From assembly GCF_035594765.1 (NCBI RefSeq), contig NC_085845.1:17168024-17232023 (forward strand): DNA of 64,000 nucleotides, given 5' to 3'. Origin of the DNA: Anolis carolinensis. Lineage: Eukaryota. The translations under genes and the position numbers were made by a program. Of the stretch, positions 2,919-45,799 are shown piece after piece; the first letter of the stretch is position 1, and every line of letters starts with the position of its first letter. The notes below the pieces were generated by a model, which was given only the letters and a program-made list of their open reading frames with translations, was not told where the DNA came from and searched no databases.

Positions 2919-3022
2919 CAGGCATGGGCAAACTTCAGCCCTCCTGGTGTTTTGATAGGCTGTTAGGAATTGTGGGAGCTGAAGTCCAAAACACTTGGAG
3001 GGCTGAAATTTGCCCATGCCTG
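2919..3022. mobile_element. Short palindromic hAT (Charlie-like) MITE, internally deleted
   Basis: TIRs CAGGCATGGGCAAA / TTTGCCCATGCCTG; perfect 8-bp TSD AGGTAGAA (2911-2918, 3023-3030). Confidence 0.9.
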
Positions 3023-3468
3023 AGGTAGAATATCTGCCTTTCCCCCCCATGCCCCCCATGCTCTGATTTGGCAGGGACAGACCTGACTAATTCTTTTTCA
3101 TTCCACTTTTTCAGCTATATCTTAACTGTCCCAGTTTCTTTATCCTCCTTCCACTTTTCCTTACTTCCGTTGAACTGAATTCAAAGCACAAGAGTAAATT
3201 AAGTCAGAAGGAAGGGGAAGGGATAGTGTTGTTCCCTGTAGGATCAGACAAAAGCAAACTGTTGCAGCACCTTCTGGCTGTGTGTTCTTTCTCATTAATA
3301 ACTTTTGCCATTCTGATCACATTCAGAGGTTGCTGGAAAAGTGGGATGGCAGAGCTTTAATTAGGACTGACTTTAATTAAAGACAAGTGGGTTTCAGAAC
3401 ACACTGAAGATGATATGAAATTGCAGAGTTGTTTGCTCTTGAATTTCTGATGTATTAGTAGAAAATTC

Positions 3469-3493
3469 TTTACTTACTTACTTACTTACTTAC
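3469..3493. repeat. (TTAC)n microsatellite
   Basis: About 6 tandem TTAC units directly before a SINE head. Confidence 0.85.
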
Positions 3494-3494
3494 C

Positions 3495-3765
3495 ATTGCC
3501 ACGGTGATGCAATAGGTTAAACCTTTGTGCCAGCAGGACTGCTGACTTGAAGGTTGGGTTGCTGACCTGAAGATAAACCGGGGAGAGCATGGATGAGCTC
3601 CCTCTGTCAGCTCCAGCTCCCATGAGAGAACATGAGAGAAGCCTCCCACAAGGATGTTAAAACATCAAAAACATCTGGGCGTGCCCTGGGCAATATCCTT
3701 TCAGACAGCCAATTCTCTCACACCAGAAGCGACTTGCAGTTTCTCAAGTCTCTCCTGACATGAAT
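3495..3765 (+). mobile_element. tRNA-derived SINE (lizard SINE2 family ending in ...CTCCTGACAYGAAA)
   Basis: tRNA-like head and body homologous to the inverted copy at 11291-11886. Confidence 0.8.
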
Positions 3766-9030: not shown

Positions 9031-9157
9031 CTCTAGGGGTTGCAGTTGAGGCACTCCTGCATGCGCACCTCTGCCTCCTTCTCTCACGGTTGCTCTGGCC
9101 TGGGCCCGCCATTGGGCCTGGGCCCGCCTTCGGGGCCAGGCCCGCCTTAACCCACCC

Positions 9158-42795: not shown

Positions 42796-43138
42796 CAGTA
42801 GAGTCTCGTTTATCCAAGCTCCGCTTATCCAACATTCTGTATTATCCAACGCAGTTTGCCTTTTAGTAGTCAATGTTTTTGTAGTCAATTTTTCAATAAA
42901 TTGCAAAATTTTGGTGCTAAATTCATAAATAGAGTAATTATTACATAACCTTATTGTGTACTGAACTGCTTTTTCTATCCATTTGTTGTAAAGCATGATG
43001 TTTTGGTGATTAATTTGTAAAATCATAACATAATTTGATGTTTAATAGGCTTTTCCTTAATCCTTCCTTATTATCCAACATTTTCACTTATCCAGTGTTC
43101 TGCCAGCCCGTTTATGTTGGATGAGTGAGACTTTACTG
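42796..43138. mobile_element. Tc1/mariner (Tigger-like) MITE
   Basis: TIRs CAGTAGAGTCTC / GAGACTTTACTG; TA TSD. Confidence 0.9.
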
Positions 43139-43348
43139 TATATGTATTTCCATGTTAAGTGTAAGGGGTTACCCACATCTCCAATCATTCACATTATTTT
43201 GGTCACACTGTCATGGCCACTCCCCCCCTTTTTCCCCAGTCATGCATACAGATATATGTATTTCCATGTTAAGTGTAAGAGGCCAATCACCTTTCTTGTT
43301 TCTTACATTTACATTCCCATAGGACAGGATCATCACTAACTCTTCATG

Positions 43349-44598
43349 CAGGGCCGGCCGGAGATATTTTTTAATGGGAAGCGGGGGTGCTGAAAAGCGC
43401 CCCCGCCACCCGCGCCCTGGCCCCGCCCAGCGTGCCCTGGCCCCGCCTCCCACGCTGCGTGGGAGGCGGGGCCAGGGCGATTAGTGAGGGGGGGCGGGGC
43501 CACAGTTGGCCCCGCCCCCGCCCAGCGTGGCCATTTTGCCCTTAGTAACAAACTAAGGGCAAAAATGGCTTATCTGGCTGTGCGCATGCGCACAGCCAGA
43601 TAAGCCATTTTTGCCCTTAGTTTGTTACTAAGGGCAAAATGGCCTAGGTGTGCTGTGCGCACGCGCACAGCACACCTAGGCCATTCGGGCCTGACTTCCT
43701 GGTCGCGGCCGGCGACCGCCCGGGCGATCGCCGGCCGCGACCAGGAAGTCAGGCCCGAATGGGCTATCTGCGCTGTGCCCGTGCGCACAGCGCAGATAGC
43801 CCATTCGGGCCTGACTTCCTGGTCGCGGCCGGCGATCGCCCGGGCGGTCGCCGGCCGCGACCAGGAAGTCAGGCCCGAATGCCCTAGCTGTGCTGTGCGC
43901 GTGCGCACAGCACAGCTAGGCCATTTTGCCCTTAGTAACAAACTAAGGGCAAAAATGGCTTCTCTGGCTGTGCGCATGCGCACAGCCAGAGAAGCCATTT
44001 TTGCCCTTAGTTTGTTACTAAGGGCAAAATGGCCTAGCTGTGCTGTGCGCACGCGCACAGCACAGCTAGGGCATTCGGGCCTGACTTCCTGGTCGCGGCC
44101 GGCGACCGCCCGGGCGATCGCCGGCCGCGACCAGGAAGTCAGGCCCGAATGGGCTATCTGCGCTGTGCGCACGGGCACAGCGCAGATAGCCCATTCGGGC
44201 CTGACTTCCTGGTCGCGGCCGGCGATCGCCCGGGCGGTCGCCGGCCGCGACCAGGAAGTCAGGCCCGAATGCCCTAGCTGTGCTGTGCGCGTGCGCACAG
44301 CACAGCTAGGCCATTTTGCCCTTAGTAACAAACTAAGGGCAAAAATGGCTTCTCTGGCATGCGCACAGCCAGAGAAGCCATTTTTGCCCTTAGTTTGTTA
44401 CTAAGGGCAAAATGGCCTAGCTGTGCTGTGCGCACGCGCACAGCACAGCTAGGGCATTCGGGCCTGACTTCCTGGTCGCGGCCGGCGACCGCCCGGGCGA
44501 TCGCCGGCCGCGACCAGGAAGTCAGGCCCGAATGGCGCCCCTAGCAGCCAGCGCCCGAGGCGGCCGCGTCCGCGGCCGCCTAGTAACAACCGGCCCTG
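43349..44598. mobile_element. GC/CpG-rich non-autonomous hAT element (Tip100/MER45-like termini) with a nested-palindrome interior
   Basis: TIRs CAGGGCCGG / CCGGCCCTG; perfect 8-bp TSD TCTTCATG (43341-43348, 44599-44606). Confidence 0.9.
43529..44534. repeat. Hierarchical inverted-repeat array, 390-bp period (about 2.6 units), containing a 590-bp perfect palindrome
   Basis: CCATTTTGCCCTTAG recurs at 43531, 43921 and 44311; 43682-43976 is the exact reverse complement of 43977-44271. Confidence 0.95.
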
Positions 44599-44815
44599 TC
44601 TTCATGCCAGCTCCACAGTAATGCTACTTCAGAGTCTGCTACACACCAAAAAAAAAAAATCCCTAAATTTTCCAGGCGTTTGCAAGGTAAAAAGGAAGGG
44701 CTTCCTTTGCATCTGATTAAAGCCCCTAGGTGTCAAAAATAATTGCTTTCCAAATAAAGCACCAAGAACATCACCTGTACAGATCACTACAGTTATGGGA
44801 TGAGAATGTTTTTGT

Positions 44816-45056
44816 GTTGTCGAAGGCTTTCATGGCTGGGATCACAGGGTTGTTGTATGTCTTTCGGGCTGTGTGGCCATGTTCCGGAAGCATTCTCTCC
44901 TGACGTTTCACCCACATCTATGGCAGGCATCCTCAGAGGTTGTGAGGTATCTATACCTCACAACCTCTGAGGATGCCTGCCATAGATGTGGGCGAAACGT
45001 CAGGAGAGAATGCTTCTGGAACATGGCCACACAGCCCGAAAGACATACAACAACCC
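44816..45056. mobile_element. Penelope-like insertion: inverted pLTR pair
   Basis: About 105-bp inverted arms centred near 44951 plus a ~30-bp extra tail on the left; TSD TGAGAATGTTTTTGT (44801-44815, 45057-45071). Confidence 0.9.
44964..45004 (+). ncRNA. Minimal type I hammerhead ribozyme motif of the Penelope pLTR
   Basis: CCT-CTGAGGA-T-GCCTGC(CATAGAT)GTGGGC-GAAAC-GTC-AGG: CUGANGA and GAAA cores, stem II, GUC cleavage triplet, stem I CCT/AGG. Confidence 0.75.
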
Positions 45057-45799
45057 TGAGAATGTTTTTGTCAGCTTAAATAAACCTTCATTTTCACCAT
45101 TGGGTGAAATCTCAGGCATTTTTGGAAATATCCCCCCTTCCCATCTTGTAGAATGTTGCTTTTTCCGAGAGCATATCCAGTTGAAACTCATTTAAATTGC
45201 TTCCATACAATGTCAAAGTAATGGTTATGTAATGTAGTTAGGGACATGATTTGGAACCTGGCATTTTCACTTGGAACAGCATCCTGAGACCATCTGGAGC
45301 TTGGCTTTCATTCCTCCACATTAGCTACTTTTCCTCCTCATTGGCTGCCCTGCCTTTCTCATCCCATTATGAAGTCCACTTGCACACAGAAAGACAGCTG
45401 TGAAGTTTGAAGAACAGTTAACGGGAAACATATTTCTGATTGCTGCTTTGTCTGGGTTTGCAGGTTGGCTAGCAACTGGCACTCCATATGGGAAGAATTG
45501 AAATGGTCTGAGTAGATTGAGAACTAATGGTAGTGTAAAATGAAATTTTCACACATGGTAATAATTCCCACCGTTTCCAAGGCTGGAAGGTGTTCTTTGT
45601 GTTGGAACACAAACTGAATCATTTGAGAGCTACAGAACTTTGTGCAATCTCTGTACATATTAGATGATCAATTTTGCCCTGGTGACAATTTGATAAATTT
45701 GGATGCCCATGCCAGCTTGTTTAATGTGCCCCCAGCTTTCCAGTTCTCACACTGAATCCAATCAGAACTTGGAAGTAATTTGTTACACATCACTACTTT

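What the first reader, a model, noticed from the sequence alone, without database searches (positions are those of the whole stretch)
43570..44200. Flip-flop loops and co-varying arms point to a hairpin-templated copying mechanism
Seen: module E occurs as CTGTGCCCGTGCGCACAG (about 43773) and, one period later, as its reverse complement CTGTGCGCACGGGCACAG (about 44163). Unit 2 therefore arose by inversion, not simple tandem duplication. Variants change in both arms at once: B1 is TTATCTGG...CCAGATAA while B2 is TTCTCTGG...CCAGAGAA, and C1 is CTAGGTGTG...CACACCTAG while the other C modules are CTAGCTGTG...CACAGCTAG. The A loops alternate aacaa/ttgtt. Established: flip/flop hairpin loops mark rolling-hairpin replication (parvoviral ITRs) and template switching at quasi-palindromes, and hAT excision creates hairpin intermediates on the donor flanks. 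Inference: arm-to-arm correction or template switching is sculpting this element.
Basis: partly seen in the sequence, partly recalled or inferred. Interest (0 to 1): 0.72.

Follow-up and report, generated by a model that had tools for sequence, protein, structure and literature searches.

The report
Self-rewriting hairpin array in lizard transposon
The stretch is the inside of a very young jumping DNA element of the green anole, and its chain of DNA hairpins is arranged differently in almost every copy, likely because the copying machinery doubles back at the hairpins while the element sits in the chromosome, not because it replicates like a parvovirus.

Summary
It lies inside a 1,250-bp non-autonomous hAT transposon (43349-44598, perfect 8-bp target duplication). 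Four other samples carry the empty site. I found a probable autonomous partner (6.7-7.5 kb, intact hAT transposase) with the same hairpin array at one end.

Across 165 copies:
- Ten autonomous copies with near-identical transposase frames show nine array layouts.
- Loops flip freely only at modules flanked by long inverted arms (E: 51 vs 33). Loops A, C and D almost never flip against their flanks (6 of 713), so the A alternation is fixed anatomy.
- Paired arm variants are inherited subtypes, and about 10% are unpaired chimeras.
- Most private mutations stay unpaired. Seven are mirrored, all over at least 121 nt (0.07-0.21 expected by chance).
- Two copies hold an inverted copy of their own end plus host flank, so fold-back copying happened in the chromosome.

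Template switching is supported. Rolling-hairpin replication and routine stem correction are not. The scan earlier noted a similar hairpin-packed hAT element elsewhere in this genome.

The parts
43341..43348 (+). left target-site duplication TCTTCATG
   Evidence: identical to right copy; single copy at the empty site in 4 of 4 other runs
43349..44598 (+). complete non-autonomous hAT element, 1250 bp, subfamily W
   Evidence: TIRs and 8-bp TSD; 40 W copies parsed
43349..43359 (+). left TIR; its first 11 nt are shared with the autonomous element's left end
43360..43529 (+). fixed left subterminal part with GC boxes and a 22-bp-arm hairpin centred at 43456; shared with larger subfamily Z, not with the autonomous element examined
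43530..43569 (+). module A, forward (T4, loop AACAA, A5); also 43920-43959, 44310-44349
43570..43603 (.). module B1, perfect palindrome, turn point, A/T subtype
43604..43643 (-). module A, inverted; also 43994-44033, 44377-44416
43644..43679 (+). module C1, G/C subtype; other C modules (C/G subtype) at 43884-43919, 44034-44069, 44274-44309, 44417-44452
43682..43761 (+). module D forward (80 nt, one internal mismatch); also 44072-44151, 44455-44534; inverted at 43802-43881, 44192-44271
43764..43799 (-). module E, turn point, loop in the less common orientation
43960..43993 (.). module B2, perfect palindrome, C/G subtype; centre of a 382-bp-arm palindrome (43595-44358)
44154..44189 (+). module E, loop in the common orientation
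44350..44376 (.). module B3 with a 7-nt deletion in one arm, shared with 5 other loci
44535..44598 (+). fixed right end and right TIR; same end as the autonomous element, upstream of its transposase gene
44599..44606 (+). right target-site duplication TCTTCATG

Best explanation
The feature is the internal hairpin array of a recently inserted non-autonomous hAT transposon, and its flips and paired variants most likely arise when DNA synthesis across the element doubles back at a hairpin in the chromosome, copies the strand backwards, and rejoins forward at another matching arm or a few bases of microhomology. SHOWN: the element, TSD and empty alleles; a probable autonomous partner with the same array; near copy-unique layouts; free flipping only at modules between long inverted arms; inverted self-copies that include host flank; rearranged junctions shared between loci. 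INFERRED: a fold-back at B or E makes the right arm a copy of the left, which creates paired variants and flips a whole block. Switches at a hairpin centre then give the roughly 10% unpaired chimeras. Slips between direct repeats add or remove 390-bp periods, and transposition spreads each layout as a sub-lineage. The window's E</E> order was inherited from such a master. UNRESOLVED: the trigger, which I put at about 55:45 for gap repair after transposase excision versus fork stalling at the hairpins.
For: (1) L071 holds a 546-nt inverted copy (541 identical) of its own left part, TIR, TSD and 104 bp of flank, and L157 likewise with 13 nt of flank; both then resume forward to a normal right end with TSD. 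That is 2 of 148 non-autonomous copies. Three more (L016, L061, L165) fold back into the left unique part. (2) Of 212 private substitutions, 7 (in 5 copies) are mirrored, against 0.07-0.21 expected, all at 121 nt or more. (3) E occurs 51:33, and 7 of 17 multi-E copies are mixed; through-modules flip in 6 of 713 resolvable cases. Subfamily Z, with different hairpins, repeats this: turn loop 44:32, 22 of 28 multi-loop copies mixed, through-module 0 of 181 flipped. The Z loop flips together with a nearby arm mismatch in 35 of 35 informative cases. (4) Ten autonomous copies differ by 2 or fewer of 2277 nt from the majority transposase frame, with indels of 10 bp or more in only 2 of 10 bodies of about 6.3 kb, yet show 10 array lengths (410-1132) and 9 module orders. 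W copies have 2 substitutions in 7600 terminal sites but 23 module orders in 40 copies. (5) Rare junctions often show 0-3 nt overlap or short locally templated inserts (75 and 32 of 152 rough calls). (6) A tip-less D/D junction occurs at 8 loci and in contigs of 2 of 4 independent runs.
Against: No experiment, no pedigree and no second allele of a filled site was seen. Module counts are pseudo-replicated by descent, so the Fisher P values overstate the evidence. Most private changes (64 of the 71 with an inverted partner) are not mirrored. For the window copy alone, tandem duplication followed by an inversion between the D arms gives the same sequence. The junction list includes low-frequency SNVs and had no chance model. 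The two flank-capturing copies come from one assembly. Fold-backs into the right unique part were seen in 0 of 148 copies against 5 into the left; this is unexplained and not significant.
Confidence: 0.74

Rival explanations
1. Break-and-join palindrome instability: arrays extrude cruciforms, are cut, and are repaired by end joining and by recombination between inverted arms, without long fold-back synthesis.
For: Tip deletions (tip-less D/D turn at 8 loci, shortened B arm at 6), short templated inserts and a very stable predicted fold (-726.5 kcal/mol for 992 nt, no shuffle control) fit. E inversions need only a crossover between the flanking arms. This probably makes part of the variation.
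Against: It does not by itself give net inverted gains of 189-546 nt that run into flank and return.
Confidence: 0.12
2. Routine local arm-to-arm correction or loop-only inversion within each stem (short-range four-point template switch).
For: B arms are matched in 72 of 80 modules and C arms in 131 of 145 in W, against 38.8 and 71.9 mismatches expected; D outer arms are matched in 57 of 62 in X. Z outer arms are matched in 69 of 82. Paired subtypes of through-modules C and D need at least one local conversion each. Rare local flips exist (1 C in L154; A in L011). Five private contexts match a pre-existing partner within 90 nt.
Against: The same C variant is not paired in X (8/13/15/52, P=0.17), and another C variant is one-armed in 13 of 13. 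A T4/A5 and the D mismatch persist in W. Sixty-two private changes have an unchanged partner within 90 nt, and none of the 7 mirrored ones lies in one small stem.
Confidence: 0.05
3. Two old fixed subtypes plus ordinary tandem slippage; nothing is ongoing.
For: First B is A/T in 17 of 22 and last B is C/G in 21 of 22; first C is G/C in 25 of 32. All 8 W copies with E< first carry one marker, and 0 of 14 unmarked copies have E< first.
Against: Unpaired chimeras occur in 6 (B) and 9 (C) of 40 W copies. There are turns at A, C and D, mirrored private mutations and site-specific flank captures.
Confidence: 0.04
4. Extrachromosomal rolling-hairpin replication, parvovirus-like, with terminal resolution giving flip and flop forms.
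For: The array looks like a head-to-head, tail-to-tail concatemer of a 195-bp unit between B and E, and E occurs in both orientations.
Against: The hairpins are internal, and the ends are hAT TIRs with 8-bp TSD. The partner's 759-aa frame has only DUF4371 and hAT dimerisation hits. Turns also occur at A, C and D. Inverted copies include host flank, which an excised replicon would not carry.
Confidence: 0.02
5. Assembly or read artefact from palindromic GC-rich DNA.
For: All full-length layouts come from one assembly, and short-read contigs did not span the array.
Against: Junctions and layouts recur across loci. One junction and several variants appear in independent runs. TSDs are perfect in 92 of 92 closed copies. 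Inverted copies differ slightly from their templates.
Confidence: 0.03

Closest known systems
hAT-N6/N7/N8_AC, orphan non-autonomous hAT families of Anolis carolinensis (Novick et al., PMC3014272; Table 1 and hAT section read)
   Same: Same host, 8-bp TSD, very young, and a similar TIR (CAGAGSCGGYCC versus CAGGGCCGGCC here). The paper stresses structural diversity by inter-element recombination.
   Different: This TIR is not in Table 1. The word 'palindrom' does not occur in the main text. Lengths here vary from 269 to 2584 bp, and an autonomous partner was found. Whether that partner also moves N6-N8 was not tested.
Small inverted triplications (PMC13334657, abstract) and ODIRA (PMC10766183, abstract)
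   Same: [quoted passage not shown] The reported average size (about 150 bp segments, 30 bp spacer) is close to the events here.
   Different: Here the events are iterated in a germline transposon and spread by transposition. Origin dependence, FEN1 and hairpin-capped intermediates were not tested.
Gap-filling and FoSTeST models for TIR transposons (PMC8277862, passages)
   Same: Template switching in a TIR element in the chromosome, capture of nearby sequence, then amplification by transposition.
   Different: The template here is mostly the element itself in inverted orientation, not a host gene.
Short-range template switch mutations that keep hairpins paired and invert loops (PMC8794818, passages)
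   Same: One event changes both arms or inverts a loop.
   Different: Loop-only inversions are rare here; flips carry whole blocks, and private changes in small stems stay unpaired.
Tip group of hAT transposons (PMC3942097, PMC12511174; passages)
   Same: 8-bp TSD, an 11-bp TIR beginning CAGGG (Tip100: CAGGGGCGGAG), and a transposase of similar size (808 aa versus an 869-aa database record here).
   Different: No tree was built, so membership is untested. Linking DUF4371/ZMYM1-like proteins to this group is recalled.
Parvoviral rolling-hairpin ITRs (recalled)
   Same: Two reverse-complement loop isomers.
   Different: The hairpins are internal, no Rep-type domain was found in the partner frame, and copying reaches into chromosomal flank.

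Membership tests
hAT superfamily | 8-bp target-site duplication | tested here: met
   92 of 92 closed copies perfect; 10 of 101 loci had no left end in the first fetch, 7 of which closed as long elements later
hAT superfamily | short TIR with YARNG start (PMC3014272) | tested here: met
   CAGGG...
hAT superfamily | autonomous partner with hAT transposase | tested here: met
   17 of 20 fetched loci closed with TIRs and TSD around a frame of 544-759 aa; PF05699 E=1.3e-10 and PF14291 E=3.6e-18. Mobilisation of the window element by it is inferred from shared TIR and right end.
hAT superfamily | DDE catalytic residues aligned to a solved hAT transposase | tested here: inconclusive
   no significant PDB sequence match; no structure predicted
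Tip group of hAT | transposase falls in the Tip clade of a tree | not tested
   no named reference sequences were in hand; TIR resemblance only
hAT-N6/N7/N8_AC | TIR CAGAGSCGGYCC | tested here: not met
   position 4 is G here
MITE | non-coding, TIRs, high copy number | tested here: met
   765 exact left ends and 238 exact right ends; longest ATG frame 149 aa, in repeat sequence, not scanned
MITE | short uniform length (recalled criterion) | tested here: not met
   269-2584 bp; 29 lengths in 40 W copies
Rolling-hairpin replicon | hairpins at the termini | tested here: not met
   array starts 181 bp in and ends about 64 bp before the TIR
Rolling-hairpin replicon | Rep/HUH nickase gene | tested here: not met
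   only hAT-type families in the partner's long frame; other short frames not scanned
Rolling-hairpin replicon | flip and flop isomers both present | tested here: met
   E 51:33, Z loop 44:32
Small inverted triplication / ODIRA-type event | forward-inverted-forward layout with a short turn junction | tested here: met
   L157, L071, L016, L061, L165
Small inverted triplication / ODIRA-type event | initiated by a replication-fork error, not a double-strand break | not testable with these tools
   needs genetics
Short-range template switch mutation | loop inverts in place with flanks and outer arms unchanged | tested here: not met
   6 of 713 through-modules (2 copies); Z loop never separates from the nearby arm mismatch, 35 of 35

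The most novel reading that the evidence does not exclude
The array is a built-in, self-rewriting control region of an active vertebrate transposon: a CpG-rich block of housekeeping-promoter-like motifs (NRF1-, YY1- and ETS-like; recalled consensus) upstream of the transposase gene. Each round of excision repair reshuffles its number and order by fold-back copying, giving the transposon a contingency-locus-like way to vary its expression or dodge silencing, and seeding hundreds of variable CpG islands through the genome.
Probability: 0.12. Interest if true: 0.78.

Novelty: new variant of a known kind. Interest (0 to 1): 0.48.

Why it matters
Fold-back template switching is mostly studied in yeast reporters and rare human rearrangements. 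Here one genome holds several hundred nearly identical, very recent copies of one substrate, with an internal point-mutation clock and known empty sites. That makes the rate, the switch points and any dependence on transposase measurable in a vertebrate germline. It also shows how perfect-looking covariation in hairpins can arise from inverted copying plus inheritance, without selection on an RNA structure or stem-by-stem repair. The transposase is annotated as a host 'ZMYM1-like' gene, so the family may be under-recognised.

Tried and rejected
Rfam scan of 43200-45200 at gathering thresholds: no match. PDB sequence search with the transposase: nothing significant. Exact look-up of the raw 759-aa frame: not in the collection; the homologue search then found a 100%-identical stretch in an 869-aa record. 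Sequence look-up in earlier findings: nothing. No RNA holder was listed on record for the locus, and expression of the autonomous element remains unexamined. E orientation cannot be read from short-read contigs because its flanks are symmetric. An 18-mer flank scan found L071 but missed L157's 13-nt capture, and its L069 hits came from a second nearby family copy; smaller captures may be missed. The junction classification is rough and is not used for rates. The left-end sample was mostly subfamily Z; 6 of those ends did not close with a TSD and were left out of the counts. At least two of them (L081, L089) appear interrupted by other insertions. Paper searches found no description of this array. 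Repbase and Dfam are not searchable here and supplements were not read, so the family may be catalogued there. Rejected readings: parvovirus-like replication, flank-hairpin excision footprints, selection on RNA structure, and A-loop flip-flop.

Full report
OBSERVATION. The region is a chain of five palindromic modules in the order A> B A< C> D> E< D< C< A> B A< C> D> E> D< C< A> B(short) A< C> D> (coordinates). The two 390-bp periods differ at 9 positions: four in the E loop, two mirrored pairs (B, C) and one unpaired base.

WHAT IT IS. The array fills a 1250-bp element at 43349-44598 with short TIRs and a perfect 8-bp TSD. The genome holds 765 exact left ends and 238 exact right ends of this type, with 0 control matches. 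Of 101 fetched loci with this right end, 91 closed at once with a TSD; with the window copy that makes 92, all perfect, 269-2584 bp long. They fall into W (40, including the window), X (39, same modules) and Y (13, other modules). A larger subfamily Z (56 closed copies used) shares the left end but has other hairpins and another right end. Contigs of four runs from four studies run straight across the site without the element, so the insertion is recent and polymorphic.

THE PARTNER. A DUF4371 search hit loci next to seven of the ten unclosed right ends. Seventeen of 20 fetched loci closed as elements of 4.7-7.5 kb (16 of them 6.7-7.5 kb) with TIRs, TSD and a long frame. That frame carries DUF4371 and the hAT dimerisation domain and is 100% identical to a record named 'zinc finger MYM-type protein 1-like [Anolis carolinensis]'. 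The autonomous-type left end occurs 174 times. The array lies at the end upstream of the gene, about 3.1 kb before the first coding exon I could read. W and X share the partner's right end and modules but only 11 nt of its left end, so they appear to be chimeras with the Z/Y left end (inference).

RATE. Ten of 13 copies with the full 759-codon frame differ from the majority by at most 2 of 2277 nt, and only 2 of those ten bodies have an indel of 10 bp or more. Their arrays nonetheless have ten lengths and nine module orders. W copies have 2 substitutions in 7600 terminal sites, yet all 40 sequences differ, with 29 lengths and 23 module orders (a few orders may be split by modules the patterns missed).

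TEST 1, LOOP ORIENTATION (99 copies). Against their flanks, C loops were canonical in 245 and flipped in 1; A loops 348 and 5 (all in L011); D 114 and 0. Set aside were turns (C 3, A 13, D 9), symmetric forms (C 9, D 28), element ends (38), an A variant of autonomous copies (21) and unresolved cases (21). E, which lies between inverted D arms, occurred 51 to 33 (1 other), and 7 of 17 multi-E copies were mixed. Z replicates this with unrelated hairpins: turn loop 44 to 32 of 82, 22 of 28 multi-loop copies mixed, through-module 0 of 181 flipped. The Z loop kept phase with a nearby arm mismatch in 35 of 35 informative cases. Flips are therefore block inversions with switch points out in the long arms. 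In W, first-position E< is one inherited event (8 of 8 carry a marker, 0 of 14 unmarked copies have it). L061 has the same E</E> order as the window, and L119 and L156/L161/L164 look like one-period deletions of it.

TEST 2, PAIRING. In W, 8 of 80 B and 14 of 145 C modules are unpaired, against 38.8 and 71.9 under independence. These counts are inflated by descent, and the subtypes are tied to position. In X the same C site is not paired (P=0.17), another C variant is one-armed in 13 of 13, and the D outer site is paired in 57 of 62. Among 212 private substitutions in 165 copies, 139 had no inverted partner, 64 had an unchanged one, 2 were copied directly and 7 (in 5 copies) were mirrored, against 0.07-0.21 expected. 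All seven lie 121 nt or more apart. Within 90 nt, 62 partners were unchanged and 5 matched a pre-existing common arm, which is ambiguous. Many private changes post-date the last copying, which dilutes this test.

TEST 3, WHERE IT HAPPENS. L071 contains a 546-nt inverted copy (541 identical) of its left part, TIR, TSD and 104 bp of host flank. L157 turns at E, copies back through the TIR and 13 nt of flank, and resumes near E. Both end normally with a TSD. An excised replicon would carry no flank, so the copying occurred at the chromosomal site. Other junctions are shared by 6-8 loci, so rearranged copies also transpose. One of them is seen in 2 of 4 independent runs. Rare junctions often have 0-3 nt overlap or stuttered local inserts (rough); reading these as polymerase-theta or MMBIR-like is recalled knowledge.

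MECHANISM. Synthesis across the array stalls or releases at a hairpin. The new end primes on its own strand or the opposite template, copies backwards, and re-enters forward at an identical arm or by microhomology (inferred). A turn makes both arms identical, which creates paired variants; symmetric A arms are indeed seen at 7 of 10 C-side turns. Two switches in long arms flip E. Centre switches make unpaired chimeras, and direct slips change period number. Whether excision-gap repair or fork stalling starts it is open (about 55:45, the lean resting on the inter-subfamily chimeras).

POSSIBLE FUNCTION. The element has GC 0.65 and CpG observed/expected 0.91, against 0.39 and 0.19 in the rest of the window. 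One 196-nt half-period holds NRF1-, YY1- and ETS-like motifs (recalled consensus, chosen after seeing the sequence); none of 2000 shuffles held all three. With its position upstream of the transposase gene this suggests a promoter, but transcription was not shown, and transposase-binding subterminal repeats remain an alternative.

COMPARISON. Novick et al. (PMC3014272; passages, hAT section and Tables 1-2 read) list no family with this TIR; hAT-N6/7/8 are nearest. The events resemble small inverted triplications and ODIRA (abstracts), gap-filling and FoSTeST (passages) and, less well, short-range template switches (passages). Tip-group affinity rests on TIR likeness (passages). Tandem-repeat-bearing MITEs are known (PMC3879986, search listing only). 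Searches found no account of this array; supplements, Repbase and Dfam were not seen.

VERDICT. Real feature; template switching supported at block scale; parvovirus-like replication and routine stem correction not supported. Known processes in an unusually clean, high-copy natural setting: new variant of a known kind, interest 0.48.

Noticed in passing
window 44842-45061: A separate 109-nt-arm, 97% palindrome with a 2-nt spacer in a very high-copy repeat; Penelope-like by recall.
   Followed up: no
window about 42796-43138: A MITE whose end resembles the TcMar-N7/N8_AC TIR in Table 2 of PMC3014272, about 210 bp left of the element.
   Followed up: no
window 43139-43181 and 43253-43295: 43-nt direct repeat at 84% identity just left of the insertion site.
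   Followed up: no
window 9097-9146: GC-rich 18-bp tandem repeat (2.8 copies) next to a TGCGCA-containing motif; possibly a decayed relative-type element end.
   Followed up: partly
L207 1767-9070 and other autonomous copies: The 3-kb region between array and first coding exon carries several nested MITE and SINE-like fragments, as described for hobo_AC.
   Followed up: no
L203, L212 versus L199, L200: Autonomous copies with near-identical transposases carry either X-type or W-type right ends, pointing to exchange with non-autonomous copies.
   Followed up: partly
G000:C2:165728713-165736708: Three autonomous-type left ends spaced exactly 3986 bp apart: a tandem triplication involving the element end.
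   Followed up: no
L020 1184-3767: Internal direct re-copy of almost the whole element starting just inside the left TIR.
   Followed up: partly
L149 (minus strand, near 2987-3528): A 541-bp copy without a matching TSD sits directly beside GC-rich, possibly coding host sequence.
   Followed up: no
P0002, P0005, P0006, P0008: Further anole 'ZMYM1-like' proteins at 66-83% identity; candidate partners for subfamilies Y and Z or for hAT-N6/7/8.
   Followed up: no
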